64,000 nucleotides of DNA from Candidatus Parcubacteria bacterium (GCA_963806325.1 CAWDXL010000016.1:68043-132042), one strand, 5' to 3'; positions 8,427-43,250 are shown, counted from the stretch's first letter. The notes: generated from the sequence alone by a model not told the origin. Numbers and translations: made by a program.

Positions 8427-8430
8427 TTTT

Positions 8431-22853: not shown

Positions 22854-24412
22854 CAATTTTGCATCTATTAGTTGTAGCTCAGAACGCTTTATATTAAGCG
22901 ATATTAGCGTTTCCGGACTTTTCTGATAGAGCTTGTTTTCCGTAATTAACATCTGAAAGAAGGGGGTCGAGTGCGCTTTTATTAGTTGGCCGTCTTGCAC
23001 CTCAAACTTTTCCCAGAAAAATGTCAGTAAGTTCCGTTTTAGGTCGAATGATGCCTTTTTGTATACTTGATATATATTCTTGCTGAATGAGATTATTTCT
23101 TGTGCCACATTAGCATCAAAGCCCCTGATGTCTTCTAGCTCTGATAGTCTAACGGAGAGGCTTTTAAGCTCGCCATTGCATTCATTTATCATTCTTTTGA
23201 ATGTCTCATCGTCAATTAATCCTATTTTGTCTTCAATCGTCTTTCTTTTTGCCTCCCAAGCAGTACGCATATTGACCAATGTCTGCCTATTGCGGTCATA
23301 GTCTTTCACTTGGCTGTCAAACATACCCTTGGTTTTTTCAATAATATTATTTGTGAAGCTCTCACTAAATTGGAGGTCTTTAAATTTCTCCGCCACTGCT
23401 TCCTCAAGGAGAACCTGGTCACAATAGAGGCCACAACCAGTTGGGTTAGTACATCGGTAATATATTTTCTTTTTTTCATATTTGACCTCACCAGTAAATT
23501 TTCTATTGTGGATTGGGCAAAACAGAAGACCTCCTAATAACCACTTATGCTTACGTCGTCGGCATCTATTGCCCGTATGAGCCTTGAGAACGAGCTGTAC
23601 TTGGTCAAAGGTTGCTTTATCAATCAAAGGCTCGTGCTTTGCCTTTTTAATATGTATATGACCCCATTTAAGCTCGCCAATATAAAATGGGTTAGCGAGA
23701 AATCTATACATGACACTTGGTGCAGTCTTTTTACCCGTCTTACTCCGTAAGCCTTTTTCATAAAATATATCTATCAATTCGTACACATTATAAGAACCTG
23801 TTGCGTACATCTGGAAGAACTCAGTCATGAGTTTTCCCATTTCAGGATGAGGTATAACTATTCTATCAGCCATCTTATCTGTATGTGTTTTGTCTGGGTT
23901 CTCAACATTAGTGTAACCTAATACGGCTCTACTAGGTAAATAACCAGCCGCGGCTTTTGCATAGGTAATTTTCTTTACTTTTTTCGACGTAATATCTTTA
24001 TGATATTGGCTAAATGAGGCAACCATTGTATCCATAACTGTAGACTCAGCACTACCATCTGGAGTTGCCATTTGACTGTACTTCAATTCAACATTATTTT
24101 TCTCCAGTAGTTCTTTAAACTGAAAATAAAACATAGTGTCTCTTGCAATTCTGTCAGAATGCACTGCATACACGGCCTTAATCTTTTTTTGTTTTTTACA
24201 AGCTCAATAATTTCTTGAATACCTTTTCGGTTTCTATTTCCTCCAGATTTTCCTTTGTCAATAATTATTTTTAGAACTGTGTATCCATCTTTTTCTATTT
24301 CATCTCGGCAAGCTTTTTCTTGATTACCTAATGATTGATTATCGATTTGGTCGAGGGTACTGACTCTACAATACCCAACAGCATATCCTTTTGAATTTAT
24401 TATTTCGTTCAT
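22824..24412 (-). pseudogene. Large serine recombinase, split into two ORFs (24083-24412 and 22824-24203) by a -1 frameshift in an A7 run
   Basis: The N-terminal ORF carries the catalytic motif GYCRVSTLDQ. The downstream frame continues with KIKAVYAVHSDRIARD, a recombinase domain and a Cys-rich zinc ribbon (CPIHN...YYRCTNPTGCGLYC). The frames join at T7 24184-24190 on the plus strand. Confidence 0.85.
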
Positions 24413-24413
24413 A

Positions 24414-24890
24414 TTATTTTTTATTAGTTATTAATTTCTTACTCAATTTTCTTTTGCTAGCCACTAAATCAGAATGGTAAGCATTAAAGACAGCAAACAT
24501 TGATTCAATAAGGTTAGATTCAGCAGAAGTATCTTGCTTTATATTTGCAAATCTAACCTCAATGTCATTTGTCTTACAGAGATTTTTAAACTTACCCCAC
24601 CTTTCTATATTTCTAGAAATTCTTTCTAAATTAGCACAATATATAAGCTCCACTTTCTTTTCGTTTACCAAGGTTTCCAATCTTTTGAATCCTTCTCTAG
24701 TAAAATCATCCGCGCTTTTTTGAGTATCAATGACAACCTCCTCAATATCAGCATTATCTCTAACAAGAGCTTGTATACAAGTTGTTGCCTGTTCAGCAAT
24801 CAGACGATTATTTAATAATGGGTCATCATTTCTAGCTCTGATGTAAATTACCGCCATCTTCCTATTTGATTTTTTTACTTCCATACTCAT
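24414..24890 (-). CDS. Resolvase-fold protein lacking the canonical catalytic serine
   Basis: AVIYIRARNDD aligns to the Y.RVS motif with Arg at the Ser position. The LERISRN motif (dRlsR) is retained. Its stop lies 1 nt before the integrase ATG. Confidence 0.65.
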   Translation of the reverse strand: MSMEVKKSNRKMAVIYIRARNDDPLLNNRLIAEQATTCIQALVRDNADIEEVVIDTQKSADDFTREGFKRLETLVNEKKVELIYCANLERISRNIERWGKFKNLCKTNDIEVRFANIKQDTSAESNLIESMFAVFNAYHSDLVASKRKLSKKLITNKK

Positions 24891-24909
24891 TTATTATTTG
24901 ATTAATTTT

Positions 24910-25122
24910 TTACCTCATGAATCCTGTGAAATGCACGAGGCGAGGGGAGACACCGAAATCTACAGCTCTTTTTGTCATGTATGAATTCAGAATTTTCAGT
25001 GGCTCCTTCGCCTGACATTTTGCAAGGTCATAACTTATATCTCCACGCTTCATCAATCGCTTAATCTCGTCTAACCTGATTTTCGCTAACTTAGCCTTTT
25101 CCTGCATGATTTCATTGCTCAT
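24910..25122 (-). CDS. Small hypothetical protein (first gene of the recombinase operon)
   Basis: 70 aa with an ATG start, lying downstream of a good promoter on the minus strand. Confidence 0.4.
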   Translation of the reverse strand: MSNEIMQEKAKLAKIRLDEIKRLMKRGDISYDLAKCQAKEPLKILNSYMTKRAVDFGVSPRLVHFTGFMR

Positions 25123-25158
25123 ATTGACATTAATTTAATTACGTTGCATTATAATTAA

Positions 25159-25186
25159 ATTATAATGTCTTGCCGTAACGAATCAA
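25159..25186 (-). promoter_or_regulatory. Sigma70-like promoter (minus strand): TTGATT-N16-TATAAT
   Basis: On the minus strand the -35 TTGATT is plus-strand aatcaa at 25181-25186 and the -10 TATAAT is at 25159-25164. Confidence 0.4.
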
Positions 25187-25210: not shown

Positions 25211-26257
25211 CTATGTAATTTGATTCCAACTATATAAGTAGCGATTGTGTTGAGCTTTGGTTACAGCGATTATTCCTTCGGATAATAAGTTATCTAAAAC
25301 CTGCTTTACCATATTTTGGGAATATTTATTTGGAAGTTCATCTTTGATTTGCAGTATATCTATACTTTCTAGCTTAGTTTTTAACAAATCGGATATTTCA
25401 ATAATCGCCATTTCTTGCTTTTCTTTCTGTCTCTTATCCTCCCCATCGTAAGATAATTCCATTAGGCCATTCTCATTTTTACTAATCTTTACCTTGAAAG
25501 AAGGTACAGCTTCATCTTGTCGCAATTTGGTCTGTTCGAGATATAGACAGCTATTAGGTTTATCTAATTTAACTGCTATATGCACATCGACTCCTGCAAG
25601 AATGTCAGATGAACCTCTTAGACTTTGGGAGGGGTTATTGTAACCAGACGATTCTTTTCTGTGATGATGTGTAAAAATAATACTTGTTCCCGTTACTCTA
25701 ATTTTCTGCAAGCCTTCCAATACTTTTGCCATATCTCTTGAAGAATTTTCTTCTCCACGATGGATTCTAACTAATGAGTCAAAAATAACGAGTTTGATAT
25801 TTTTCTGTTTAACTACTTCAATGAGGTGATTTAAGTCTTCCTCCTTGTCAATTTTGAAGCCTATCTGATTGAGGTAATGAATTTGGAAATTATCATCAGC
25901 ATTTATCCCAAAGGCCCTTCCTCTCTTTTGAATTGTTCTAAGATTGTTTTCTTCGTCAACAAATAAAACTGAAGATTTTAATACTTCAAATTTATTCAAG
26001 AATAGGGAGCCTGATACAAGTGAATTTGCGATAGCCATAGTAATCCAAGTCTTAAAATTAGATGGACTACCTGAAATCACAGAAATAGTATCAAGAGGGA
26101 ATAGCTTATCAATCAACCACTCTTCTTTTCCGTAGTCAGCCTGAATAATTTCGTTAAGGGTTTTAGTTTTGAATCGGTTTATTGATTCATTCTCATTCTT
26201 GATTTCCATATCAAGTTGCTCGATAATTTTTTCTGATTGTTTAACAATTTCTGTCAT
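25211..26257 (-). CDS. AAA_25/RepA-like RecA-fold ATPase
   Basis: WLIDKLFPLDTISVISGSPSNFKTW is a P-loop with F in place of the second G. Walker B is KLVIFDSLVRIH. The start overlaps the stop of the upstream gene (ATGA). Confidence 0.7.
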   Translation of the reverse strand: MTEIVKQSEKIIEQLDMEIKNENESINRFKTKTLNEIIQADYGKEEWLIDKLFPLDTISVISGSPSNFKTWITMAIANSLVSGSLFLNKFEVLKSSVLFVDEENNLRTIQKRGRAFGINADDNFQIHYLNQIGFKIDKEEDLNHLIEVVKQKNIKLVIFDSLVRIHRGEENSSRDMAKVLEGLQKIRVTGTSIIFTHHHRKESSGYNNPSQSLRGSSDILAGVDVHIAVKLDKPNSCLYLEQTKLRQDEAVPSFKVKISKNENGLMELSYDGEDKRQKEKQEMAIIEISDLLKTKLESIDILQIKDELPNKYSQNMVKQVLDNLLSEGIIAVTKAQHNRYLYSWNQIT

Positions 26258-26898
26258 AGATTGAGTAGATACTTCACTGCTTCAACGAAAGTTAAACTAT
26301 GAAGTAATCTGATTAGAATAATAATATTTCCATTCCTGCCACAGCCGAAGCAGTGAAAAGTGTTTGTTTTAAGGTAGATTGTGAATGAGGGAGTTTTTTC
26401 ATTGTGTAGGGGACAACTACCGATTAAATTTTTGCCAACTCGCTTGAGTTTGATACTTAACACGCTTTCAATTGGAACTGATTCAGCCCTTTGAATATCT
26501 GCTTCGCTCAACCAATTTTTATTTGGCGGACTTGCGCCTGAGTAGAGGTTATCCAGCCGTTTTAGTCTTTTGATTTGATTTTGTATTTCTACTAGTCTTG
26601 GTATATCTAGATGCTTTACCACAGCTTTCCAGAACCATTGATTCTCAAGAGCAGATTTCTGGTTAATAATCCTAAGTTTGTCTTTGATTAATGATTCTTC
26701 CATCTTGTACTCCTTCTGCCACTCATAAATTTTTTCAATTATCACAGAGTGTGCCTCTGGAAATACTTTTTTCAACTCACCCTCAAAGAAATGGTTAGAT
26801 TTTTTCCATGCAACTTCCATAGCTTCAACTTCTCTCCAGAGCAGTAGGTCATCACGAAAATCCTCAGTCATGAGACTGGTAATATATCTATTTTCCAT
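26254..26898 (-). CDS. CHC2 zinc-finger (DnaG-type) protein without a recognisable TOPRIM domain
   Basis: The C-terminal CPLHNEKTPSFTIYLKTNTFHCFGCGRNGN is the CHC2 primase zinc finger. Confidence 0.7.
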   Translation of the reverse strand: MENRYITSLMTEDFRDDLLLWREVEAMEVAWKKSNHFFEGELKKVFPEAHSVIIEKIYEWQKEYKMEESLIKDKLRIINQKSALENQWFWKAVVKHLDIPRLVEIQNQIKRLKRLDNLYSGASPPNKNWLSEADIQRAESVPIESVLSIKLKRVGKNLIGSCPLHNEKTPSFTIYLKTNTFHCFGCGRNGNIIILIRLLHSLTFVEAVKYLLNL

Positions 26899-27171: not shown

Positions 27172-27630
27172 TTATTTTGAAAGTTTTAAACCAACTCCTC
27201 TGTTTGTTTCAATGATGCCCTTATCTGAACTCTTATCTAGCGACGTGTGTTCAAGTAGTGCTTTCACTCCGTTAGTAATACGTTCTACAATTTTTTTCTT
27301 GTTCTGACATTTCTCGTGATTTTTTGATTCAAGATATTTATTGATACTTTCGTATGTTGCAGAACCATCTTTTGTATAAAAAAGGAAAGATACTATATGG
27401 TAGTGTAAAGAACTTGTTCCACTAAAATCTATTTTTTTATCACCATAATAGAAATCATTGTCTCTTTGTGTTACAACGCGCCGCCCACTTATTGCTGTGG
27501 CGGGGGATTGAGAGTAGTTAATATTTGCTAGAACCGCATCAATATCAGCCTCATCTTTAGAACCTTTAAGAAATACTTTGTGTTTGAACAATAGATTACT
27601 CGATTTCGTTTTAAGAAAATTATCAAGGCT
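27172..27630 (-). CDS. OmpR/CadC-type winged-helix DNA-binding segment (no ATG anywhere; probably the C-terminal part of 27528-28247)
   Basis: IVERITNGVKALLEHT...IIETNRGVGLKL resembles the trans_reg_C recognition wing. The frame is open from 27630 and the only candidate start is the TTG at 27591. Confidence 0.5.
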   Translation of the reverse strand, partial: SLDNFLKTKSSNLLFKHKVFLKGSKDEADIDAVLANINYSQSPATAISGRRVVTQRDNDFYYGDKKIDFSGTSSLHYHIVSFLFYTKDGSATYESINKYLESKNHEKCQNKKKIVERITNGVKALLEHTSLDKSSDKGIIETNRGVGLKLSK

Positions 27631-28247
27631 TTATTCGCATCTTTGATACTCGAATTGGCTTTTTCTGACTCTTTCTCAGCAAAAAATAAGTTAGAAAATG
27701 GAAGTTTGTAAAACTTTTTTACCTCATACAGTAAATCATCTTTCAGTAATTTTTCAATATCCTTGCAAAGCTCAATGTATACCACATTATGTTCTTCTGT
27801 TACAGCCCTGACATCAGTTGCATAATAATTTAGTAGTTTAATCAGAATTACTACTTTTTCAGACAAGAGTTCCAGGTTATCTTTTTTAAGTTTTGATATA
27901 TCTTTAGCATATTTTTTAAGGCTTGCGGGTCGTGCTTCAAAAATAGCTACTTCCATTTGAGTGTCTTCTTCAATATAAAAACTATTCTCCTGCTCAGGAT
28001 AGTCTCTTACAGGTATAATCTCAGTAGTGTATTTTAAATTTTTTATTAACCCAATTTCTTTAAAATAATCAAGAATCGGATATAGTATATGAGAATCAGA
28101 ATTTCCCAGTTCGCCTAGTTGCATTTTTACTTTATGAAATTCCAATGGTTTTGATAGATTTTTTTTATTCAAATCATAAATTGCTCTCAACATTCTTTCG
28201 ATGAGTATTTGTGAAGGTTTTTTGATTTGTTCAGGACTGTTTTTCAT
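27528..28247 (-). CDS. Hypothetical protein (element regulator/replication region)
   Basis: 239 aa with an ATG start. The last ~30 residues look like out-of-frame read-through (see finding). Confidence 0.5.
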   Translation of the reverse strand: MKNSPEQIKKPSQILIERMLRAIYDLNKKNLSKPLEFHKVKMQLGELGNSDSHILYPILDYFKEIGLIKNLKYTTEIIPVRDYPEQENSFYIEEDTQMEVAIFEARPASLKKYAKDISKLKKDNLELLSEKVVILIKLLNYYATDVRAVTEEHNVVYIELCKDIEKLLKDDLLYEVKKFYKLPFSNLFFAEKESEKANSSIKDANKALIIFLKRNRVIYCSNTKYFLKVLKMRLILMRF

Positions 28248-28421
28248 TGTAAGTATAATAGTATTTTTTGCTCCAGTTTCTAGATTTTCAGGCCAGTCTC
28301 TAAACTTTTCATATTGAAGCCACTAACTAATTATTTAGTAGAACCCAACTATATATTCAGTATCTAAAATATGCAAAAAATAAACTAAGAGCATAAATGA
28401 CTGAAATGTAAGACCCCGTGA

Positions 28422-28465
28422 GTTTCTAGTTTTTTCCTACTATATATAGGGAATAAACTAGGAAC
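28422..28465. repeat. 44-bp imperfect palindrome centred on TATATATA
   Basis: gtttctagttttttc (28422-28436) matches the reverse complement of gaataaactaggaac (28451-28465) at 13 of 15 positions. Confidence 0.6.
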
Positions 28466-28483
28466 TGGTTTAAAACATGATTA

Positions 28484-28752
28484 TTACCCTATATTTTCAC
28501 ATAATATACAGATATTTTATGTGGAAGAATGGGGAGAAATGGGTAACTTTTTACGCAAGTTAGCCATATTCTATTACCCACTAAAAATAGTAATGGGTAA
28601 ATTTTAAAGCAGAGAATAATACTAAATTGTCTATATAAATGGTTGAAAATAGCGAGTCATTTACACAAGTTAAATGTAAATAGGTAAAAACAGGTAACTT
28701 TTTACACAGATTAGCCATTCTTGACACCCTATCTCAAATTGCAATTAGGTAA
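28484..28752. promoter_or_regulatory. Iteron-like repeat cluster (GGGTAA/AGGTAA motifs and 26-nt direct repeats)
   Basis: (G/A)GGTAA or its complement occurs at 28484, 28541, 28574, 28595, 28682, 28692 and 28747. The 26-mers at 28542-28567 and 28693-28718 are identical at 23 of 26 positions. A partial third copy lies at 28660-28672. Confidence 0.5.
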
Positions 28753-28807
28753 TTTGTATCAAATATTATTTACATTAATGCTTAGAATCTAGAAAATTTT
28801 AAAGCCT

Positions 28808-28835
28808 TTGAGAACTTCTAACTGTGCTATATAAT
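28808..28835 (+). promoter_or_regulatory. Sigma70-like promoter TTGAGA-N16-TATAAT
   Basis: The -35 is at 28808-28813 and the -10 at 28830-28835. It faces the cargo genes. Confidence 0.5.
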
Positions 28836-28842
28836 GCAAGCA

Positions 28843-29053
28843 CAACTGAATAAGTAGGCCTAAACTTAGAGTATTAACCCTCTAGGCATGGCCAGAAAGC
28901 GTTCCATACAAAAAACCCCGTTATCAATGGGCGTATGGAACGTTGCAAGTCGAAAGGCTTGTATTAAGGCGAAAGCCTTAACCTTGGTAGCGGGATTTTT
29001 CGTGCAACGAAAGTTCCTACTCCAAGGAGTCATTTTATTAGTTAATAATTTAT
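28843..29053 (+). promoter_or_regulatory. Structured ~210-nt leader / candidate cis-regulatory RNA
   Basis: There is a 12-bp stem (28898-28909 with 28933-28944) and a GNRA hairpin ttaaggc-gaaa-gccttaa (28964-28981) with a competing aaggc at 28954-28958. An outer stem (28982-28990 with 29017-29027) encloses the hairpin tttcg-tgcaa-cgaaa. Confidence 0.35.
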
Positions 29054-29755
29054 ATGAGTATAAAAACCCTGTGGCAGAGGAGAAAAAGACAAATTATTAT
29101 CGGCGGCAGTGTTATTTTATTAATACTGGTTGTCTGGACTGACATTGTTTCCAACAGGCCAACAACTATCACATTGATTCAACCTCAAGATGGGGCATCA
29201 ATACAGGCAAGCAGTACTATTATTGAAGGAATAGTTACTCCTAAAAATGCAATGGTTTCAGTTAATGGCATCCCAGTCATTCTAGATAGCAATGGTCAAT
29301 TTTCATCCGAAGTAGCTTTGCCTGATGCAACAAATACAATCACTGTTACCGCATTTGGTAACACTCCCACAACTTCAACCTTAACAATTAATCGCATCTT
29401 TGCTCCTGGAGAACAGGCTGAAATAGCAAAAGAGGCTGCTGATGCCAAAGCTCAAGCAGATGCAGACGAAAAAGCCGCCGAAGCGCAAGCCAAAGCTGCT
29501 CAAGAAGCATATGACAGCACTCCTGCTGGCAAAGCGTGCAAAGGTCATCCTGATTGGTCGGCAGATATTTGTGAAGTGCTTGGAAAGGGTCACGTTAGTA
29601 TTGGTATGGACGAAGAACAGGCTTTGGTGGGATGGGGTCAACCAGACCATGTCAATACAACGACTACCGTATTAGGCACGCATGAGCAGTGGGTCTACGA
29701 TTACTCCTCCTATCTTTATTTTGATAATGGAATATTAACCTCGATACAAAATTAG
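29054..29755 (+). CDS. Membrane-anchored secreted protein (Ig-like region, Ala/Glu-rich linker, small C-terminal beta domain)
   Basis: 233 aa. It has an N-terminal TM helix, and the C-terminal GMDEEQALVGWGQPDHV...HEQWVY...YLYFDNGILTSIQ resembles SmpA/OmlA-like domains. Confidence 0.55.
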   Translation: MSIKTLWQRRKRQIIIGGSVILLILVVWTDIVSNRPTTITLIQPQDGASIQASSTIIEGIVTPKNAMVSVNGIPVILDSNGQFSSEVALPDATNTITVTAFGNTPTTSTLTINRIFAPGEQAEIAKEAADAKAQADADEKAAEAQAKAAQEAYDSTPAGKACKGHPDWSADICEVLGKGHVSIGMDEEQALVGWGQPDHVNTTTTVLGTHEQWVYDYSSYLYFDNGILTSIQN

Positions 29756-29756
29756 T

Positions 29757-29984: not shown

Positions 29985-29987
29985 AAT

Positions 29988-35654: not shown

Positions 35655-35662
35655 TATCTAAA

Positions 35663-36166: not shown

Positions 36167-36227
36167 TAAATTGCCAGAATCTTTTTATTTTGGATTTAAA
36201 TAAAATAATATTAAAGAATGTAATTCG

Positions 36228-36866: not shown

Positions 36867-36982
36867 GCCAAAAGTTGCAGTCAAGCGAGCCGAAGGAGTA
36901 TCAGATGATGAAATACAACGACGACTGGCTAGAGCGTTTGATGTATTGTTTACAGCCACGGCAGGTAAGCTAAAATAGACTG

Positions 36983-37474
36983 ATGGCCACAATACTTATT
37001 TTAATAGTTGTAGTAATTATTGCTCTATTATTTTTTGTACTGAATAAATTAGGTGAGAGTAATAAAAAACAATGGGCGTATCAATACAAGAGAAAAGACT
37101 TCTTCTTATCTCGTGCGGAGCATGAGTGCTACGATGCCCTTATGCTCGCTGTGGGGAAGGATTATTACATCTTTGCTCAAGTTCACGTGCCAACCATTGT
37201 AGATAGTAAAGTCGTAGGCCAAAATTGGCGTGGCGCATTTCGCCATATCAACGAAAAGTCCGTTGATTTTGTATTGTGTGATAAAGCGTATATTTCACCC
37301 AAACTTGTTATTGAGCTAGATGACAGAACCCATGAACGTATTGATAGGGTAGAGCGAGATAAGGAGGTGGAGCGCATTTTGAAAGACGCTGGACTACCCT
37401 TACTTAGGTTAGAAAATAATGGGAAATTTAATACGGATGAATTAGCCCAAAAAATAACGTCTCTATTGAGTTAA
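36983..37474 (+). CDS. DUF2726 (endonuclease-like) protein with an N-terminal TM helix
   Basis: LSRAEHECYDAL...IFAQVHV...KSVDFVLCDKAYISPKLVIELDDRTH...RDKEVERILKDAGLPLLRL matches the DUF2726 pattern. Confidence 0.75.
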   Translation: MATILILIVVVIIALLFFVLNKLGESNKKQWAYQYKRKDFFLSRAEHECYDALMLAVGKDYYIFAQVHVPTIVDSKVVGQNWRGAFRHINEKSVDFVLCDKAYISPKLVIELDDRTHERIDRVERDKEVERILKDAGLPLLRLENNGKFNTDELAQKITSLLS

Positions 37475-37500
37475 AATTTTATTATTGCTAGGCTTACGGC

Positions 37501-37995
37501 ATGGCAATTATCACCAAAAAAATCCTGCCAGAATGGTTTGATGCAATTGCTTCTGGGCAGAAGAAGTATGAACTTCGTCTTGCTGATTTTGATATTCAGG
37601 AGGGAGATACACTTCGGTTGGAAGAATGGGTTGGAGAAGGAGAGGGTAGAAAGGCAACAGGTAGGGTGATAGAAAAGAAAATCAGCTATGTACGCAACTT
37701 TGATGTAGATACATGGATGAAACAACAGCCAGAAATTAAAGAAAAAGGAATGTATGTATTGCAGTTCGATGATTCTAAAAATGAGGCAGAGAAAAAGTAT
37801 GTTCAAGAAGAAACATATGGCCTACTGTTAATCGGTATTGCGTTCGGAATCATAGGTGGAATGGCCGCAAATGTGCTGGATAGAATATTTGGGCAATTTG
37901 GTGTTTGGTATGACCTCATTATTGTAATTTTGTTTGCCGTTGCTTGTGCGGGACTAACATATCTTCTGAAAAGAAAATTAAAATACATGAAGTAG
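37501..37995 (+). CDS. ASCH-like (DUF3850) domain protein with a C-terminal TM region
   Basis: KKILPEWFDAIASGQKKYELRLADFDIQEGDTLRLEEW...ATGRVIEKKISYV, then the hydrophobic LLLIGIAFGIIGG and LIIVILFAVACAGL. Confidence 0.65.
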   Translation: MAIITKKILPEWFDAIASGQKKYELRLADFDIQEGDTLRLEEWVGEGEGRKATGRVIEKKISYVRNFDVDTWMKQQPEIKEKGMYVLQFDDSKNEAEKKYVQEETYGLLLIGIAFGIIGGMAANVLDRIFGQFGVWYDLIIVILFAVACAGLTYLLKRKLKYMK

Positions 37996-38012
37996 AGACA
38001 ATTTAAAAAATT

Positions 38013-38489
38013 ATGGAAGCCAAATCTCAGAAAAAAATTGTTTACATTGATATGGATAACGTCTTAGTTGATTTTCCATCAGCTTTTTCTAAGATAGATA
38101 AAACCATATTTGAACAGTACGAGGATAAAGATGATATTCCTGGAATTTTCAAATTAATGGAACCGCTGAAAGGTGCACTCGAATCGTTTGCAACACTCTC
38201 TGAAAAGTTCGATGTATATATCTTGTCTACCGCCCCATGGAATAACCCGTCTGCATGGTCGGACAAGCTTGAGTGGATAAAGAAATATTTAGGTGAAGAT
38301 GCACGCAAAAGATTGATATTGACTCATCATAAAAATCTGAATAAAGGCGATTACCTGATTGACGATAGGACAAAAAACGGAGCATCTGAATTTGAGGGTG
38401 AGCACATACATTTCGGAACTGAAAAATTCCCAGACTGGAATAGTATCGTTGAGTATTTGTTAAAAACACGTAATAAGGCTGAGGTATAG
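38013..38489 (+). CDS. 5'(3')-deoxyribonucleotidase (NT5C-type HAD phosphatase)
   Basis: IVYIDMDNVLVDF is the DxDxV nucleophile motif. This is followed by YILSTAP and DYLIDDR. Confidence 0.75.
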   Translation: MEAKSQKKIVYIDMDNVLVDFPSAFSKIDKTIFEQYEDKDDIPGIFKLMEPLKGALESFATLSEKFDVYILSTAPWNNPSAWSDKLEWIKKYLGEDARKRLILTHHKNLNKGDYLIDDRTKNGASEFEGEHIHFGTEKFPDWNSIVEYLLKTRNKAEV

Positions 38490-38732
38490 TTTTAGACTAT
38501 TTCTCAAAAAGCAGAGTTAACTTAGCGTAGAACCTTACGCTTGAATCCATATGACTGCTGTGGCTAGATATGGGTACTGTTTTTGATGCAGCATAGCTCT
38601 TGTTAAATTCAACTAACATACAAGCGTTTTACGGATTCTTATAATTCCTTCTAAGTAATGAATGTTTAACTCATCCTATAGAACCCTTAATTAGCAATGT
38701 AAAATAGAGTTTCTTCTAATTTCTCCTAACAT

Positions 38733-40160
38733 TTAGAAGTTGGCTTCGTAATAACTCTTTCTTGATTCACCAACTAAATGTAACAAACTCATCTCCTGCA
38801 TTTTCTTTAAATCATAGTTAATAGTCTGTCGAGGCACATCAGGCATTATCCTCTCACATTCTTTAGCAGTGATTCTTTTATTCTCTACAAGGTAGTTCCA
38901 AATCTTCACTTGTCTTTCATTAAGCTTGCTTAATTCTTGTCCCATCAATACAACCCGAAAACTATTTGATGTGTTTTTAAAAATAGGAGGAAGGAGCTTC
39001 CACTCTTTCATTGTTGTAAAAACAATATCAATACCTCTACCGTATTCCTCTAAATAATCAAGCTCTTTTAATCGTGCGGCAATAATCTCATTTCTGCTTA
39101 CTTGAGCATCTTTTATATTTTCAACAGTAACACCTGGTGGTAGAGAGCCTGGATTAAAAATTTCAATTCTATCTTCAAATAAGTTTACTTGCGTATACGT
39201 TTCAGTGATTTTGTAATCGCGGTGAATAATTGCATTGGCCACAAGCTCACGTGTGGCTTTTTCTGGATACTCGTATCTTTCTTCACGCTTGGTTCCAACA
39301 ATCTTTGCACTTTTCTTGATGTTTCTAAGGATAAATTTCTGAATGTCATCAATCTGGGTATCCAAAGTGCCGTCAATATCAGTGCTATCAATAATATCTG
39401 AAGCGACATTTGAACCCTTATACTTCACACATCTCACGACATATCGGCTGAAATTCTGCTTATTCTGAGGTCGTTCTTTTGAGAATATGAGGTAGCCGGC
39501 AACTGTAGGGAACTTTGCACCATTAAACTCATCTGCGATACCAAGATTTTTTAAAAGCTCGAAATTTATATCACTTAGAGAAACATCACGTTTTGCTCTT
39601 TGACCACTCTTTACAAGCAAATCAAGAATTTTTTCTTTAGATAAGTCTTCAAGTGCAGTTCCTTCTGCTTGCTGAGTATCGAACTTTAACTTTTTTGAAT
39701 TTTCAATAAGCTGTCGCATCTCTTCATCAGTCATTTTCCTGTCGGTGTTGCCGTCGCGAATACAAGCTCCATTAGGCATACCCGCTGGCTTATAGTAGCA
39801 GGGTTTAAATTGGTCAGGGCATTCAGGAATATAAACGGTAAGAATATTTTTCCCCTCAATTTCTAAAATATGATAGTCGGGACGTATGGTAGTACTCATC
39901 TCATTGCTCGTGAGGTCGCTCATCTTTTCTTGTAGAATAGACAAATTATCAACTCCTAAAATCTCTACGGTCTTGCTATCTCTCTTCTCAATAATGCCGA
40001 ACACGATGATGCCTCCACCTGGTCTGTGGGAGAAAGAAGACACCGTTTCCCACATCTTTCTGGGTAAGCCACCTCTGCCGTCCTTAAATTCAATCCCAGG
40101 AGTTTCAGACGCATATTTTATGGCCTCCTCAACAAGTTTTTTGATTTCTCTCTTGTCCAT
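38733..40160 (-). CDS. AlbA_2 (Schlafen-like) + HATPase_c_4 + C-terminal wHTH protein
   Basis: ETPGIEFKDG...SSFSHRPGGGIIVFGI is the AlbA_2 part, TRELVANAIIHRDY the HATPase_c_4 part, and the C-terminus is HTH-like. Confidence 0.8.
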   Translation of the reverse strand: MDKREIKKLVEEAIKYASETPGIEFKDGRGGLPRKMWETVSSFSHRPGGGIIVFGIIEKRDSKTVEILGVDNLSILQEKMSDLTSNEMSTTIRPDYHILEIEGKNILTVYIPECPDQFKPCYYKPAGMPNGACIRDGNTDRKMTDEEMRQLIENSKKLKFDTQQAEGTALEDLSKEKILDLLVKSGQRAKRDVSLSDINFELLKNLGIADEFNGAKFPTVAGYLIFSKERPQNKQNFSRYVVRCVKYKGSNVASDIIDSTDIDGTLDTQIDDIQKFILRNIKKSAKIVGTKREERYEYPEKATRELVANAIIHRDYKITETYTQVNLFEDRIEIFNPGSLPPGVTVENIKDAQVSRNEIIAARLKELDYLEEYGRGIDIVFTTMKEWKLLPPIFKNTSNSFRVVLMGQELSKLNERQVKIWNYLVENKRITAKECERIMPDVPRQTINYDLKKMQEMSLLHLVGESRKSYYEANF

Positions 40161-40291
40161 GAACTACTATCTTATCACTTTCTGAGAATAGCAAGAAATA
40201 CACATGAGAGTATGAGGGCAGAAAGTCATGAAGGCATTGTCAGGGGAGGGATAGATTTACATTTCCAAGAATTTGAGCTAGCTTTTAGTAC

Positions 40292-40630
40292 ATGAAGCCA
40301 ATCAATCGCTCCATCGTCCTCATACGACCCAAGCGAATGTTTATCAAATGGGCAAACTCAGTATCCAACATTGATGGAGAACTTACGCCTGAGTACTATC
40401 AAAGCCATGCTTCTGCTGTATTGATACCCCCATGCTTCTTTGAGAAAGACCTACGAGCCTATATCAATACAATCTGGGAAGACATCTTCAAACACGAACT
40501 CTCAATCAGGAATACTGATGAATCATTGTGGCCGCAAGGTAGGACTCAAAAAATGTTCTGGCAGTGGTTTGATGTAGAGCTTCGCCCCACAGTTGTTGAC
40601 TCATGCACCGAACCTTTCAAGAAAGAATAA
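40292..40630 (+). CDS. Hypothetical protein
   Basis: 112 aa with an ATG start. No motif was recognised. Confidence 0.4.
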   Translation: MKPINRSIVLIRPKRMFIKWANSVSNIDGELTPEYYQSHASAVLIPPCFFEKDLRAYINTIWEDIFKHELSIRNTDESLWPQGRTQKMFWQWFDVELRPTVVDSCTEPFKKE

Positions 40631-40636
40631 AATAAA

Positions 40637-41371
40637 ATGAAATGGTCTGCATTTATCTTAAATATTCCTTGGACATTAATAGGTCTGATTGTTGTTGTTA
40701 TTTCGATTCCAAAGAGACTTAGCTTTAATAAAGAACATCTAGCATTTGTTTTTGAAGTAAAAAGCTTCTGGTGGTATACATGGCTTCCAAATAAAAAAGG
40801 AACAAGAGCAATGGCTGTGGGACATGTTGTCCTGTTAGGAGAGAATATTTTAAGAAATGATTTAGAACATGAACTGGCTCATGTAGAACAAAGTATTAGG
40901 CAACCTTTTATTCATCCATTTTTAACTTTGTATCATAGTTGGAGGTATGGTTATATCAATAGCAAATATGAAGTAGAAGCATATGGTAAAACAGGAAGTA
41001 TATATGTATCACATGAATTTAATTTTGGAGATGACAAAGAACTGGTAGTTAAGTTAAAAAATCTAGTTTTAGAAGGAAAAAAAATAGCTACCACAGGCTT
41101 ATATAAGGAAGGTCAGGTAATCCCTAAAGTTGGAGAATATGGAGCAATTGTAGATGGTAATAAAAAGCGTTTCTGCATAGTTCAATATACGAGTACAGAG
41201 GTAAAACCATTTCTTGAAGTTGGATTTGATTATATTAAAAAAGAAGGTGAGGGAGATAGAAATGTAGAAGAATGGAGAGAAAAACATCGAAAATTCTTTT
41301 CTCACAATTCTTCATTTAACGATAAATCTTTAGTTGTCTGTGAGGAGTTTAAATTGACTGATATACTTTAG
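40637..41371 (+). CDS. Membrane-anchored HExxH (zincin-like) domain fused to an ASCH domain
   Basis: An N-terminal TM helix, HELAHVEQ, then an ASCH pattern: LEGKKIATTGLY...PKVGEYGAIVDGNKKRFCIVQYTSTEVKPF...EGEGDRNVEEWREKHRKFF. Confidence 0.55.
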   Translation: MKWSAFILNIPWTLIGLIVVVISIPKRLSFNKEHLAFVFEVKSFWWYTWLPNKKGTRAMAVGHVVLLGENILRNDLEHELAHVEQSIRQPFIHPFLTLYHSWRYGYINSKYEVEAYGKTGSIYVSHEFNFGDDKELVVKLKNLVLEGKKIATTGLYKEGQVIPKVGEYGAIVDGNKKRFCIVQYTSTEVKPFLEVGFDYIKKEGEGDRNVEEWREKHRKFFSHNSSFNDKSLVVCEEFKLTDIL

Positions 41372-41373
41372 AT

Positions 41374-42171
41374 ATGGAAAAACTATCATCAGACCAGAAT
41401 AACGAAACTCCGTTTGGCGATAATTTGGTTGAAAGCGGAATATCCGAAGTTCATAAAGGCAGAGGCAAACTTTTTGAATTTGAGCATAATCTTGATAAGG
41501 TGGTGCGTGTTGAAAGTTTTGATGCTTTGGAAAAAAGGTATAAAGGTCAAGTTGACCCAATCACAGTGGCTGGTTTTGGTAAGAAACTTTATGGAGAATT
41601 AGAAAGCGATTATGGTATCACAGCTCCTGTAGAATTTGTTGTCGGTAAAGATGTTCGAGGAAGGAATGTCGTTTATGGCATTACTGATAAAATTGAAGGA
41701 GAGAATTTAGATAAAATAAAAGTTACTTCTGAAATTACTGAAGAGGTGGAAAAACTATATGCAAAAATTGCTCAGTATTACTTAGACAAATTATCAAAAG
41801 ATGAAATGTACCTTGCGGATATAAATAATGCTAGCCAGTATGTGTTTGGAAAGCGAAAGAGTGATGAATTGGCAAAAATATATCTAATTGATACTGATTT
41901 ATATATTCGTGATGGCAAAGTGGCGTTGTACAACATTGTTTTGTGGCTCGTCCGTCATATGAGTTCTGTTGAAAGAAAATATAACAAAAAATTCAATCAA
42001 GCTAGAAACATTATCGGACAACTATTGCATGAGCCGGTGCCGCAAAGCGTAAATGAAAAAGGAAAGATTGTTGCAGAAGAAATTATCACAAAAGCGTTAG
42101 GGTATATCAGTGGTGAAATTCCTGAGGATGATGATGACGCTCATCCTATTTTTTCAAATTTGGAGGGCTAA
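41374..42171 (+). CDS. Hypothetical protein, possibly a protein-kinase-like/APH fold
   Basis: ITDKIEGENL, YLADINNASQYVF and IYLIDTDLY loosely resemble the hinge, catalytic loop and DFG region. The match is weak. Confidence 0.35.
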   Translation: MEKLSSDQNNETPFGDNLVESGISEVHKGRGKLFEFEHNLDKVVRVESFDALEKRYKGQVDPITVAGFGKKLYGELESDYGITAPVEFVVGKDVRGRNVVYGITDKIEGENLDKIKVTSEITEEVEKLYAKIAQYYLDKLSKDEMYLADINNASQYVFGKRKSDELAKIYLIDTDLYIRDGKVALYNIVLWLVRHMSSVERKYNKKFNQARNIIGQLLHEPVPQSVNEKGKIVAEEIITKALGYISGEIPEDDDDAHPIFSNLEG

Positions 42172-42218
42172 TAAAGTCATGGCAGTATGCAAACTGCTTC
42201 TTTTTAGGAAAATAGGCA

Positions 42219-42806
42219 TTAAAATTCAACTGCTTCTTTTTGAGCTACAACCTTCAAAAAACGAATCTGCATAAGGATTTTATCCATAAACGAGCCATCC
42301 TTTAATGCCTCACTAATATTATTATGGTAGCGACCCAACTTAGGTCTTATTATAACTTCTGAATCCGCCTTTGTTTTAAGGGTTTTTATCAAATATGGAT
42401 TTTTGTAATCAACGACTTTGAGACGCATTAATTCTTCAAAAAGAGGGGAGTAATGAAATTTTATTATAACTCCATCTTTGACCTCAAAACTATTAAAAAA
42501 GAAATCAATAAAGCGCTTCTGAAGTTTTTCTGGTGCTTGTATGTAAGTGTTATAAACATCTTTAGTAAAGCTAAGGATCTCACTCACAATTTCAGTGTTT
42601 GTTTCTTTGGTTTTCTGCAGTTTATTGATTTGAATGTCGATATTGCCGACCGCGACGTCAATCTCCTCTTTAATACGCGTATAATCGCTTCTAGACAGAG
42701 TTTCATCGAGTAAACGATCCTCAGCCGTCTTAAGTTTTGCTTCCCAAGCATTCTTTCGGTTCAGAAGACCTCTGTGTCTGGTGTGGTATTGGGTCCGTGC
42801 GTCAGC
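42219..42806 (-). pseudogene. Truncated large serine recombinase (C-terminal ~195 codons only)
   Basis: The frame is open from 42806. NRKNAWEAKLKTAEDRL and FFFNSFEVKDGVIIKFHYSPLFEELM parallel MRTAWEAKRKTIEDKI and FFWEKFEVQDGQLIKAHSTPFFQMLI of the 22824-24203 recombinase. No catalytic or recombinase domain lies upstream. Confidence 0.75.
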
Positions 42807-43250
42807 TTAGGGCAACACAAGCGGCTTATATGGTTATTTTGCGAAACAAAAATATACCTAATCAAAACTGGGAGCCCTGGTTAGCTGAACAAAAGACTTT
42901 TACACCTCCTCGCTACGCTTATATTTCCAGAGATAAGCTTATAAAAATGTACGGTTCCTCAGCTAGAACCGCAGAGATTACGGAGTAGTTATTTAAAGGA
43001 GGATTAATCACAGGCACTCCATAAGTTGTTTGTTAGAGAGATAGGCTGATAATGGGAATTTTTAGGATGATTGCCAATCATACATCTAAATAACATTTTG
43101 AATATAGACAGTAGCGTCATTTTTCCTCTCAAAAATAGTTCTAACATCCTCTACGACGGCACCCCTTGTAGTTCTAATTAGGAGGTTGTTCGAAAGTGTT
43201 TGTAGGAACATAATGAATAGAAGTAATTTAACAGTCTAATTTTTTATTAT

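What the first reader, a model, noticed from the sequence alone, without database searches (positions are those of the whole stretch)
22854..43160. ~20-kb AT-rich integrative element beside tRNA-His in a CPR-like genome
A tRNA-Leu/tRNA-His pair is followed at once by a serine recombinase ORF whose last 30 nt (22824-22853) lie inside the tRNA-His 3' half. The region then contains a second resolvase-fold gene, a CHC2 zinc-finger gene and an AAA_25 ATPase gene. These are followed by a regulator, an 800-bp non-coding hub, ~13 kb of cargo and a truncated second recombinase.

Composition drops visibly. Spot counts give 17/60 GC at 30421-30480 versus 32/60 at 10381-10440. I saw no capsid, terminase, portal or tail genes, so this is not a complete prophage. 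An integrative plasmid-like or satellite-like element fits better. Serine recombinases are less commonly tRNA-associated than tyrosine integrases, so the tRNA adjacency deserves checking.
Basis: partly seen in the sequence, partly recalled or inferred. Interest (0 to 1): 0.7.

Follow-up and report, generated by a model that had tools for sequence, protein, structure and literature searches.

The report
Serine-integrase island in tRNA-His gene
A roughly 20-kb AT-rich mobile island sits at the very 3' end of a tRNA-His gene in a Patescibacteria genome; it was put there by a serine integrase from a large, apparently undescribed lineage that targets tRNA genes, a habit so far credited almost only to tyrosine integrases.

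Summary
Window ~22852-43161 is foreign DNA (34.6% GC against ~42.5% in both flanks). It abuts tRNA-His(GTG), and a large serine recombinase (LSR) ORF ends 30 nt inside that tRNA.

The adjacency is not chance. In 36 of 49 metagenomic relatives with a complete 3' end, the LSR overlaps a convergent tRNA gene, and tRNA identity tracks LSR similarity. Junction alignments put the crossover at tRNA positions ~70-73 (CAC|CC). The tRNA T-loop motif GTTCAAATC lies 11-19 bp from the centre in the attB half-site. Its mimic GTTCTAACA lies at 16-24 bp in the attP arm. This matches the published 5-bp LSR attB/attP offset.

The attP arm also encodes a conserved integrase tail (GAVVEDVRTIFE.RNDATIYIP), which integration replaces with tRNA-antisense codons.

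The island carries a RepA-like helicase, a primase zinc-finger gene, a LOOT RNA (found in every close relative sampled) and ~13 kb of defence-like cargo. It has no virion or conjugation genes.

This copy is decaying. Its LSR is frameshifted in an A7 run, the second resolvase-fold gene lacks the catalytic serine, and the right end holds a relic of a second LSR element.

Unresolved: whether the main unit ends at 42.33 or 43.16 kb. No excision was shown.

The parts
22653..22737 (+). tRNA-Leu(gag). Host context, part of the conserved L19 - tRNA-Leu - tRNA-His synteny.
   Evidence: ARAGORN; Rfam; synteny in 80 related loci.
22782..22854 (+). tRNA-His(gtg), the integration target. The T-loop GTTCAAATC (22833-22841) is the outer motif of the B half-site. 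The crossover centre is about A22851/C22852, within the constant CACCC.
   Evidence: The geometry matches Rutherford 2013.
22827..22880 (.). attL: tRNA-derived B arm plus element P' arm (CAATTTTGCATCTATTAGTTG; outer motif TATTAGTTG at 22866-22874).
   Evidence: Junction alignment of about 20 tRNA-His loci; half-site alignment; the closest relative L149 shares TAGTTG at the same offset.
22824..24412 (-). Large serine recombinase LSR-A, made up of Resolvase, Recombinase and Zn_ribbon_recom domains. It is split into two ORFs (24083-24412 and 22824-24173) by a frameshift in an A7 run at 24184-24190. One extra A gives a 529-aa protein.
   Evidence: Pfam; frame analysis. The same frameshift is in the independent Logan assembly. 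Intact homologs are 40-52% identical.
24414..24890 (-). Resolvase-domain-only paralog (158 aa) that lacks the nucleophilic serine (IRARND instead of CRVSTLDQ).
   Evidence: Pfam; alignment.
25211..26257 (-). AAA_25 ATPase, a RepA-like / primase-associated helicase.
   Evidence: Pfam; PHROGs primase/helicase families; 22-24% identity to plasmid 'helicase RepA family' proteins.
26254..26898 (-). CHC2 (DnaG-type) zinc-finger protein with no Toprim domain. Its stop overlaps the start of the AAA_25 gene.
   Evidence: Pfam; PHROGs DNA primase families.
27172..28247 (-). Function not established.
   Evidence: No Pfam or PHROGs hits. No BLAST similarity to genes in the same position in related elements.
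28248..29053 (.). Divergent control region. It has 40-nt direct repeats (28528-28567 and 28679-28718), four GGGTAA/TTACCC copies against 0.28 expected, and the best sigma70-like promoter in the region (28808-28835).
28857..28980 (+). LOOT RNA (Rfam RF03000), full length. It is antisense to the LSR module and lies 74 nt upstream of the first cargo gene.
   Evidence: 81.1 bits against a gathering score of 46.4. Present in all sampled LSR-A-type elements.
29054..30254 (+). Three small cargo genes: a membrane/secreted protein with a Glucodextran_B-like domain (29054-29755), a YidD homolog (29757-29984) and a DUF4177-like protein (29988-30254).
   Evidence: Pfam.
30406..34968 (+). 1520-aa SF1 helicase (AAA_11/AAA_12) with a Top1-type zinc ribbon. 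Defence-like: it matches PDC-S37, Mokosh MkoA/MkoC and Hhe models.
   Evidence: Pfam; PADLOC. A 60%-identical homolog lies in another tRNA-His LSR element, L088.
35073..42171 (.). Remaining cargo: unknowns (35073-36866), DUF2726 (36983-37474), DUF3850/ASCH (37501-37995), NT5C nucleotidase (38013-38489), Schlafen AlbA_2 plus HATPase_c_4 (38733-40160, minus strand), an unknown (40292-40630), ASCH (40637-41371) and an unknown 265-aa protein (41374-42171).
   Evidence: Pfam; PADLOC; PHROGs. 41374-42171 has a 60%-identical homolog beside a P-arm scar in L017.
42300..42360 (.). Inner junction: a candidate P arm (…CACTAATATTATTATGGTAGCG), centre at about A42333, then the P' arm of a second element (CCCAACTTAGGTCTTATTATAAC).
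   Evidence: No relatives of the left arm were found. The symmetry test was not significant.
42327..42803 (-). LSR-B remnant. Only the C-terminal ~160 residues of a second large serine recombinase remain, with no catalytic, recombinase or zinc-ribbon domains.
   Evidence: BLASTP/tblastn.
43086..43165 (-). Outer attR: a family-type P arm that encodes the conserved excised-state integrase tail (RGAVVEDVRTIFERKNDATVYIQNVI*). Outer motif GTTCTAACA, centre at about A43161. Host sequence resumes at TTGTAG (43166).
   Evidence: 77% identical to L017 19650-19718. Homologous to the attP-type junction of L097. 13 copies in related loci all end at ACGGCACCC. Codon-position entropy 0.57/0.48/0.91.

Best explanation
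Window ~22852-43161 is a composite integrative island, produced by at least two integration events at the extreme 3' end of the host tRNA-His(GTG) gene. The integrases were large serine recombinases from a widespread lineage that targets tRNA genes.

Proposed mechanism:
- The integrase dimer binds attB. Its left half-site is the tRNA T-arm plus the 3' acceptor strand. The T-loop motif GTTCAAATC lies 11-19 bp from the centre.
- It binds attP, whose arms carry a T-loop-like motif (GTTCTAACA / GTTATAATA) 5 bp further out, at 16-24 bp.
- Strand exchange occurs within the invariant CAC|CC. Only the last 2-3 nt of the tRNA are replaced, and the tRNA stays intact.
- attP lies across the 3' end of the integrase gene. 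The excised form therefore encodes a conserved tail of about 22 aa, and integration replaces that tail with tRNA-antisense codons.

Contents of the island:
- a plasmid-like replication module (RepA-like helicase and a primase zinc-finger protein);
- a LOOT RNA at the divergent control region;
- about 13 kb of defence-like cargo.

This copy is probably immobilised. Its integrase is frameshifted, the adjacent resolvase-fold paralog is catalytically dead, and the right end retains a truncated second integrase.

Shown here: element anatomy, clade-wide tRNA association, crossover position, att-arm homology, coding constraint on the tail, and the LOOT association.
Inferred: which protein domain reads which motif, replication after excision, any function of the tail swap, and the defence role of the cargo.
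For: Anatomy and composition.

The LSR runs into tRNA-His in the window and in L001, L008, L046 and L073. In L080 it runs into tRNA-Ser.

Metagenome survey: 36 of 49 LSR relatives with an in-contig stop overlap a convergent tRNA, and one more has a tRNA 147 nt away. Only about 1% of bases in those loci are tRNA. tRNA identity follows LSR similarity: the 33-37% identity group is all tRNA-His.

Closest intact relatives: P0002, P0011, P0024 and P0029 all sit at tRNA-His in the same L19/PseudoU-synthase neighbourhood, each with different cargo.

Crossover: host acceptor stems vary up to CACCC(CA), and then a conserved element sequence begins. The Ser/Asp (CCGCCA) and Val/Arg/Leu (GCACCA) groups behave the same way.

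Unrecombined attP-type junctions: L097 and L114.

attR scars ending at ACGGCACCC lie downstream of tRNA-His in ten host loci.

Half-site motifs fall at bp 16-24 in P-type arms and at bp 11-19 in the tRNA arm. These are the positions given for the zinc-ribbon-domain motif of LI integrase in PMC3783163.

Tail: third-codon-position entropy is 0.91, against 0.57 and 0.48 for positions 1 and 2. Tails of the same type occur in P0021, P0040 and P0006.

LOOT.

Decay.
Against: - No same-species genome with an empty site was available. The best L19 match is only 73-78% identical.
- No excised circle or read-level evidence was obtained.
- Half-site symmetry alone is not significant against an AT-rich null.
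- The inner junction arm at 42.3 kb has no relatives. It does not encode the conserved tail, so the boundary of the main unit is ambiguous.
- In L017 the homolog of 41374-42171 lies 25 bp from a family-type P arm. In the window, 925 bp intervene.
- The backbone genes (helicase, zinc finger, dead resolvase) are not shared with other elements of the clade. The replication role is therefore inferred from family names only.
- The far end of an A-type relative could not be located.
Confidence: 0.8

Rival explanations
1. Architecture rival. This is one element spanning 22852-43161 whose own attP arm is the 43.1-kb segment. The 925-bp stretch holding the LSR-B fragment (42172-43096) would then be an internal relic, for example from an earlier tandem pair that later moved as a unit (accretion), not the start of a separate second element.
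For: - LSR-A fused at the centre to the 43.1-kb arm gives an in-frame conserved tail, KLGAVVEDVRTIFERKNDATVYI.
- All 40-52% relatives caught in the unrecombined state carry DVRT-type tails.
- In L017 the homolog of 41374-42171 lies directly beside a family-type P arm.
- The 42.3-kb arm has no relatives.
Against: - The 42.3-kb arm and the P' arm of LSR-A share ACTAATA at exactly symmetric positions (7 of 9 matches at bp 16-24). The 43.1-kb arm matches the P' arm of the LSR-B remnant equally well (7 of 9). The cross-pairs match 5 of 9.
- A P'(B) arm with a tRNA-like stub is what a tandem integration leaves behind.
- The LSR-B fragment is still an open frame of 195 codons, so the adjacent arm is unlikely to be heavily eroded.
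Confidence: 0.4
2. It is a phage satellite or a degraded prophage that relies on a helper virus for packaging, not a plasmid-like or purely chromosomal island.
For: - The size (~20 kb), the integrase at one end, a primase/helicase-type module and several cargo proteins match PHROGs families.
- One distant LSR relative with a convergent tRNA-Pro lies on an IMG/VR contig, L160.
Against: - No capsid, portal, terminase, tail or lysis genes in Pfam or PHROGs.
- The backbone helicase has no relative in IMG/VR.
- Viral LSR hits are only 21-26% identical.
- No known satellite hallmark genes were found.
Confidence: 0.1
3. It is an integrative mobilizable element that spreads by hijacking a conjugative system. 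The RepA-like helicase and zinc-finger protein would serve transfer or establishment.
For: - The AAA_25 protein resembles plasmid RepA-family helicases at 22-24% identity.
- L001, a related LSR/tRNA-His element, carries a protein that resembles a coupling protein by eye (ORF 9512-10804). That ORF was not scanned against any family library.
Against: - No relaxase, coupling protein or type IV secretion gene was detected in the window's element.
- Conjugation is poorly documented in these ultra-small bacteria (own knowledge).
- No oriT was sought or found.
Confidence: 0.15
4. It is not mobile DNA at all, but a native low-GC variable region with a domesticated or decaying recombinase that happens to lie beside tRNA-His.
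For: - The window has another low-GC patch of host glycosyltransferase genes at 6.8-10.2 kb.
- The recombinase here is broken.
Against: - None of the element's backbone or cargo genes was found in the 80 related L19 loci. The exceptions are LSR homologs, one CHC2 hit in L001 and one 41374-42171 homolog in L017.
- Relatives carry unrelated cargo at the same site.
- attP-type and attR-type junctions exist.
- The left edge of the GC drop coincides with the tRNA.
Confidence: 0.03

Closest known systems
Phage-type large serine integrases (LI/A118, phiC31, Bxb1, TP901-1)
   Same: - Domain order Resolvase - Recombinase - zinc ribbon.
- Short att sites.
- Outer half-site motif at bp 16-24 in attP and bp 11-19 in attB, as described for LI integrase.
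   Different: - The target is the 3' end of a tRNA gene, and the tRNA T-loop serves as the outer attB motif.
- attP overlaps the 3' end of the integrase gene.
- The integrase tail changes on integration.
- The carriers are non-viral islands in Patescibacteria.
tRNA-targeting genomic islands with tyrosine integrases (Islander/P4-type)
   Same: - Integration at the 3' part of a tRNA gene with the tRNA preserved.
- Integrase gene next to the tRNA.
- Variable cargo, tandem arrays and scars at a hotspot.
   Different: - The enzyme family is unrelated: no Phage_integrase domain was found.
- Only a few nt of the tRNA are shared between attP and attB, so there is no long displaced tRNA fragment.
- Mageeney et al. 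[quoted passage not shown]
SCCmec / CcrAB elements
   Same: Large serine recombinases insert cargo islands at the extreme 3' end of a conserved housekeeping gene, and composite or tandem arrays are common (own knowledge).
   Different: - That target is a protein-coding gene (rlmH/orfX).
- Two active recombinases are used.
- No overlap of the integrase ORF with the att site is described.
Integration-dependent gene truncation (mycobacteriophage BPs/Brujita immunity; SSV1 integrase partition)
   Same: attP lies inside a gene, so integration changes that gene's product (own knowledge).
   Different: - Those systems use tyrosine integrases.
- The affected gene is the repressor, or the integrase is split in two.
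- Here only the last ~22 aa of a serine integrase are exchanged. A regulatory role is untested.
LOOT RNA (Rfam RF03000)
   Same: Full-length match well above the gathering score, in the window and in eight further elements.
   Different: Rfam lists it only as an sRNA gene. The link to LSR/tRNA-His islands, and its fixed position at the head of the cargo operon, were not found in the held literature.

Membership tests
Large serine recombinase (serine integrase) | N-terminal resolvase catalytic domain with a nucleophilic serine | tested here: met
   PF00239 on both fragments. The YCRVSTLDQ motif aligns with intact homologs.
Large serine recombinase (serine integrase) | Recombinase domain followed by a zinc-ribbon domain | tested here: met
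   PF07508 (E = 5e-12) and PF13408 (E = 6e-06).
Large serine recombinase (serine integrase) | Single intact reading frame | tested here: not met
   Frameshift in the A7 run at 24184-24190, present in two assemblies. 60+ homologs are intact.
Large serine recombinase (serine integrase) | attP and attB half-sites with the outer (zinc-ribbon-domain) motif offset by 5 bp | tested here: met
   GTTC-type motif at bp 16-24 in P-type arms and bp 11-19 in the tRNA arm. Positions as in PMC3783163. The assignment of the motif to that domain is inferred.
Large serine recombinase (serine integrase) | Catalysis of attP x attB recombination | not testable with these tools
   Needs a biochemical or in vivo assay.
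Integrative genetic element / genomic island | Bounded by recombinant att sites at a conserved target | tested here: met
   attL at tRNA-His. Outer attR is homologous to the P arm of the L097 attP-type junction.
Integrative genetic element / genomic island | Sporadic presence, with empty or differently occupied sites in relatives | tested here: met
   Many relatives have tRNA-His with no LSR, or with different cargo. No same-species empty site was available.
Integrative genetic element / genomic island | Compositional deviation from the host | tested here: met
   0.346 against 0.425 GC; the largest tetranucleotide distance in the window.
Integrative genetic element / genomic island | Excision to a circular form | not testable with these tools
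   No reads were available. The only hint is that Logan contigs break inside the outer att core.
Prophage | Capsid, portal, terminase and tail genes | tested here: not met
   None in Pfam or PHROGs for any ORF of 80 aa or more.
Integrative conjugative / mobilizable element | Relaxase, coupling protein or type IV secretion genes | tested here: not met
   No such Pfam domains in the element.
Plasmid-like replicon | Replicative helicase plus primase/initiator and an origin | tested here: inconclusive
   - AAA_25 resembles RepA helicases at 22-24% identity.
- The CHC2 protein lacks a Toprim or polymerase domain.
- Repeats in the hub are enriched but have no assigned role.
Tyrosine-integrase tRNA island | Tyrosine recombinase and a long displaced tRNA 3' fragment | tested here: not met
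   No Phage_integrase domain. No repeat of the tRNA 3' half at up to 3 mismatches.
LOOT RNA (RF03000) | Covariance-model score above Rfam's gathering threshold over the full model | tested here: met
   81.1 bits against 46.4, model positions 1-121 of 121.
Known anti-phage systems (Mokosh, Hhe, PDC-S37) | Full-length match to the system's protein(s) and the complete gene set | tested here: inconclusive
   The 1520-aa helicase matches only the helicase cores (residues ~945-1284) of PDC-S37, MkoA/MkoC and Hhe. No partner genes were identified.

The most novel reading that the evidence does not exclude
These are members of a dedicated tRNA-gene-targeting lineage of large serine integrases that read the universal tRNA T-loop as their outer attB motif. 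In this lineage, integration rewrites the integrase's own C-terminus, replacing a conserved ~22-aa tail with tRNA-antisense codons. That swap would act as a built-in directionality or commitment switch, with LOOT RNA as a conserved regulatory partner of the module.
Probability: 0.25. Interest if true: 0.85.

Novelty: new variant of a known kind. Interest (0 to 1): 0.68.

Why it matters
The island itself is an ordinary kind of object. The way it was inserted is not.

- The field's working view is that tRNA genes are targets of tyrosine integrases, and that serine integrases are 'not known for targeting tRNA genes' (PMC7192596).
- Here a large serine-integrase lineage is systematically tied to the 3' ends of tRNA-His, -Ser, -Asp, -Val, -Arg and -Leu genes.
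- Its att geometry fits the structural model for serine integrases. This suggests how a single protein scaffold can move between tRNA targets: a constant T-loop motif combined with a variable acceptor end.
- That gives testable, naturally orthogonal integrase/att pairs whose landing sites exist in every genome.
- It gives an orphan RNA family (LOOT) a genomic home.
- It shows that ultra-small Patescibacteria genomes maintain an active hotspot for exchanging defence-gene islands.
- The integration-dependent exchange of the integrase tail is a new candidate mechanism for controlling directionality.

Tried and rejected
1. Long direct repeat of the tRNA-His 3' half as attR: none at up to 3 mismatches. 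Rejected as an expectation once the enzyme family was clear.
2. My first model, with the crossover at CCCA|GTAG inside the tRNA. It came from where the LSR-B fragment stops resembling LSR-A. I rejected it because about 20 host tRNAs differ right up to CACCC.
3. Half-site inverted symmetry as a statistical test of the two candidate right ends: not significant (scores 11-14 against a null mean of 12.2).
4. Same-species empty site: not obtainable. The window's genome is not in the species-representative set, and exact-protein lookups returned only one run, ERR10755936.
5. Locating the far end of A-type relatives (L156, L149, L153, L158): no convincing site.
6. Relatives of the 42.3-kb arm: none.
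7. A shared backbone across the clade: Res2, AAA_25, CHC2 and the two unknown genes are not found in other elements.
8. Programmed frameshift in the LSR: unlikely, because all homologs are single ORFs without the A-run context.
9. LOOT as a leader of one specific gene family: the downstream genes are unrelated.
10. LOOT literature: nothing useful in the held library or supplements.
11. Virus and plasmid collections: no close relatives.

Full report
**1. The observation**

ARAGORN finds tRNA-Leu(gag) at 22653-22737 and tRNA-His(gtg) at 22782-22854, both on the + strand. A minus-strand ORF with Resolvase, Recombinase and Zn_ribbon_recom domains ends at 22824, so its last 30 nt are antisense to the tRNA-His T-arm and acceptor strand.

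Continuing away from the tRNA along the same minus-strand block come:
- a resolvase-domain-only gene (24414-24890);
- an AAA_25 gene (25211-26257);
- a CHC2 zinc-finger gene (26254-26898);
- two ORFs with no family (27172-28247);
- an 806-bp stretch with no long ORF.

These are followed by 13.1 kb of plus-strand cargo and a C-terminal fragment of a second recombinase at 42327-42803.

GC is 0.346 for 22855-42327, against 0.427 on the left and 0.424 on the right. Tetranucleotide distance to the flanks peaks across the region. The left edge is sharp at the tRNA and the right edge is gradual. Every ORF of at least 80 aa was scanned with Pfam, and most with PHROGs. No virion, lysis, relaxase or secretion genes were found. 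The description is therefore confirmed, with the corrections below.

**2. Corrections to the description**

- The recombinase is split. The N-terminal 109-aa ORF (24083-24412) and the 449-aa ORF (22824-24173) are in different frames. They are joined by adding one A to an A7 run at 24184-24190, which gives a 529-aa protein.
- An independent Logan assembly of run ERR10755936 carries the same frameshift.
- More than 60 homologs at 40-52% identity are intact single ORFs of 515-562 aa. The split is therefore a derived defect.
- The second resolvase-fold protein has IRARND where recombinases have CRVSTxDQ, so it lacks the nucleophilic serine.

**3. Host and site**

The L19 protein upstream of the tRNAs finds Patescibacteria (Parcubacteria/Paceibacteria-type) genomes at up to 73-78% identity. 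The order L19 - tRNA-Leu(gag) - (CobAT in some) - tRNA-His(gtg) is conserved across those loci. Homologs of window gene 43544-43924 lie 1-4 kb downstream of tRNA-His in L015, L018 and L022. This fits host DNA resuming by about 43.2-43.5 kb.

**4. The tRNA adjacency is a property of a recombinase clade**

- In L001, L008, L046 and L073 an LSR homolog also runs into tRNA-His. In L080 one runs through tRNA-Ser(tga).
- A metagenome scan with an LSR alignment returned 65 loci. Of 49 with an in-contig stop, 36 overlap a convergent tRNA gene and one more has a tRNA 147 nt away. Only about 1% of bases in those loci are tRNA genes.
- Three of the 12 exceptions simply run out of contig within 50 nt of the stop.
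- tRNA identity follows LSR similarity. The 33-37% identity group is all tRNA-His. The 25-27% group is tRNA-Ser (four anticodons) or tRNA-Asp. More distant members are at tRNA-Val, -Arg or -Leu.
- The closest intact relatives (P0002, P0011, P0024, P0029) all lie at tRNA-His in the same AcylP - PseudoU synthase - L19 neighbourhood, in different hosts and with unrelated cargo.

**5. Where recombination occurs**

When about 20 tRNA-His junctions are aligned, the host acceptor stems differ right up to an invariant CACCC(CA). After that, a conserved element sequence begins (AACGGTATCTAATATAAC in the commonest type). The window has AATTTTGCATCTATTAGTTG with the same spacing.
- In the Ser/Asp group the constant part is CCGCCA, followed by GATTTCCAAGTTTGAACC.
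- In the Val/Arg/Leu group it is GCACCA.

The crossover is therefore at the extreme 3' end of the tRNA, and only the last few nucleotides come from the element. This explains why no long repeat of the tRNA 3' half exists.

**6. The other arm of attP**

L097 is an LSR of the tRNA-His group with no tRNA. Its junction reads …AGTTCTTACATCCCACACAACGG·CACCCCA·AACGGTATCTAATATAAC…. This is either an unrecombined attP or a tandem junction.

The ~69 nt to the left of the centre are homologous to window 43097-43165 and to L017 19650-19718 (77% identity). A profile of these three finds further copies downstream of tRNA-His, in the tRNA's orientation:
- one each in L002, L006, L030, L031, L075 and L080;
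- two in L072;
- three in L025;
- a second copy in L097.

Nearly all end at …ACGGCACCC(C), followed by unrelated sequence. These are attR scars of serial integrations. L114 shows the equivalent unrecombined junction for the Ser/Asp type.

**7. Geometry**

With half-sites aligned on the A of CAC, all P-type arms carry a related motif at bp 16-24 from the centre:

| Half-site | Motif |
|---|---|
| window 43.1-kb arm | GTTCTAACA |
| L097 P | GTTCTTACA |
| L097 P' | GTTATATTA |
| P' of the LSR-B fragment | GTTATAATA |
| P' of LSR-A | CAACTAATA |
| window 42.3-kb arm | TCACTAATA |

In the tRNA arm, the T-loop GTTCAAATC lies at bp 11-19. Rutherford et al. 2013 (PMC3783163) place the zinc-ribbon-domain motif of LI integrase at bp 16-24 in attP and 5 bp closer to the centre, at bp 11-19, in attB. 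The match is exact. That the zinc-ribbon domain reads this motif is my inference. A plain inverted-symmetry score was not significant against an AT-rich null, so the argument rests on cross-locus conservation and position.

**8. The attP arm is also coding**

On the LSR strand, the 13 P-arm copies translate to GAVVEDVRTIFE(K/R)(R/K)NDATIYIP. Column entropy is 0.57, 0.48 and 0.91 for codon positions 1, 2 and 3. Homologs caught in the unrecombined state carry tails of the same type (P0021 IVDNVRTIIQRQNEYIYIP, P0040, P0006). Integrated copies end in tRNA-antisense peptides such as GAYWDLNPD or QGSNLRPIA. Integration therefore exchanges the integrase's C-terminal tail. Whether this has any functional consequence is untested.

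**9. The right end is composite**

The LSR-B fragment (42327-42803) keeps its own P' arm (CCCAACTTAGGTCTTATTATAAC) and a 10-nt tRNA-like stub (GTAGCGACCC, compared with GTAGGCACCC in the tRNA). Similarity stops to the left of that stub. Two readings remain.

- *Tandem model.* Element A runs from 22852 to about 42333 and ends in its own diverged P arm. A decayed element B occupies 42334-43161. Support comes from ACTAATA lying at symmetric positions in the 42.3-kb arm and in P'(A), with 7 of 9 matches for the cognate pairs against 5 of 9 for the cross-pairs.
- *Single-unit model.* The unit spans 22852-43161 and the LSR-B piece is an internal relic. Three points support it. LSR-A joined to the 43.1-kb arm gives the conserved tail in frame. 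All relatives have DVRT-type tails. In L017 a 60%-identical homolog of 41374-42171 lies 25 bp from a family-type arm.

The 42.3-kb arm has no relatives. I rate the two models at about 0.5 and 0.4. Either way, at least two integration events are recorded.

**10. What the element carries**

- *Backbone.* The AAA_25 protein matches PHROGs primase/helicase families and, at 22-24% identity, plasmid RepA-family helicases. The CHC2 protein is a primase-type zinc finger without a catalytic domain. No close relatives were found in IMG/VR or the plasmid collection.
- *Control region.* It contains 40-nt direct repeats, four GGGTAA/TTACCC copies against 0.28 expected, the best promoter-like site (TTGAGA-16-TATAAT, 28808-28835) and, 21 nt downstream of it, a full-length LOOT RNA (RF03000; 81.1 bits, gathering score 46.4).
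- *LOOT elsewhere.* LOOT is also present in the elements of P0002, P0011, P0021 (plus a second copy in the neighbouring element), P0024, P0029, L008 and L114. It was not found in the host-only loci searched. It is always antisense to the LSR. Wherever I checked, it lies 20-75 nt upstream of the first gene of the cargo operon and in the same orientation, and those first genes are unrelated to each other.
- *Cargo.* The cargo looks defensive. A 1520-aa SF1 helicase matches the PDC-S37, Mokosh and Hhe cores, and a 60%-identical copy lies in another tRNA-His element, L088. The rest comprises DUF2726, two ASCH proteins, an NT5C nucleotidase and a Schlafen/AlbA_2-HATPase protein.

**11. Comparison with what is known**

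Mageeney et al. [quoted passage not shown] They found 14 of 297 such islands and said experimental proof would be required (PMC7192596). Searches of the held library found no later description of a tRNA-targeting serine-integrase lineage, and none in Patescibacteria.

The island is a new member of a known kind. The integration system is a new variant: it has serine-integrase chemistry and site geometry, tyrosine-integrase-like target choice, and an attP that overlaps the integrase's own 3' end.

**12. Limits**

- No same-species empty site and no read-level evidence of excision were available.
- Logan contigs break inside the outer att core: L083 ends at 43164 and L159 starts at 43137. This is only a hint of an alternative junction.
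- This copy's integrase is broken, so present-day mobility is doubtful.
- The replication and defence roles are inferred from family names.

Noticed in passing
window 28857-28980 (+); also L149 6991-7108, L151 8014-8133 and 13806-13922, L008 8598-8712, L114 4186-4311, L152 3277-3399, L156 7274-7391, L158 6693-6814: LOOT RNA (Rfam RF03000) is present in every LSR-A-type element sampled. It is always antisense to the integrase and heads the cargo-side operon, whose first genes are unrelated. It could be a leader/processivity element or a regulatory sRNA of these islands.
   Followed up: partly
window 24414-24890 (-): A resolvase-domain-only protein whose catalytic serine is replaced by arginine. 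It is a dead paralog encoded directly upstream of the integrase gene, with unknown role (accessory subunit or decay product).
   Followed up: partly
window 24184-24190: The integrase frameshift lies in an A7 homopolymer, and A8 would restore the frame. Slipped-strand on/off switching is conceivable but untested. Both assemblies show A7.
   Followed up: partly
window 28480-28720: Four GGGTAA/TTACCC copies (0.28 expected) and two 40-nt direct repeats 151 bp apart, each containing a TAACTT…AAGTTA palindrome. These look like iterons or operators, possibly an origin.
   Followed up: partly
window 6807-10202: A second low-GC patch (~0.35) encodes a nucleotidyltransferase, GT2 and GT1 glycosyltransferases and a GrpB protein. 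This is an ordinary surface-polysaccharide cluster, not an element.
   Followed up: yes
window 29757-29984 (+): A YidD (membrane-protein insertion efficiency factor) homolog is carried inside the island, just after a membrane/secreted protein gene.
   Followed up: no
L017 10416-10982 and 10524-18686: An LSR C-terminal remnant runs into tRNA-Leu(gag). It is followed by an 8-kb island with an OLD-type ATPase plus UvrD-like helicase (Gabija-like) and RelE-type toxins. tRNA-Leu is therefore a second LSR hotspot in the same neighbourhood.
   Followed up: partly
L025 4722-4788, 6471-6533, 7147-7210; L072 11266-11322, 12758-12792: Several attR-type P-arm scars lie in series downstream of a single tRNA-His. 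They record repeated integration and decay at this site.
   Followed up: partly
window 45910-46593 compared with L004, L012-L015, L018, L022 and others: The cobalamin adenosyltransferase gene lies between tRNA-Leu and tRNA-His in many relatives. In the window it lies 2.7 kb to the right of the island. No tRNA remnant was detected after it.
   Followed up: partly
L083 end (window 43164) and L159 start (window 43137): Contigs of the independent Logan assembly break inside the outer att core. This is compatible with an alternative junction, or with related elements in the same sample.
   Followed up: partly
L160 3239-4787 (IMG/VR UViG_3300029206_000079): A distant LSR relative (24% identity) on a contig classed as viral also ends at a convergent tRNA-Pro(ggg). 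The habit may therefore extend to some viruses.
   Followed up: no
L131-L147 (peat and bog metagenomes): The Val/Arg/Leu-targeting members lie in visibly GC-richer sequence than the Patescibacteria loci. The clade probably extends beyond Patescibacteria, but taxonomy was not checked.
   Followed up: no
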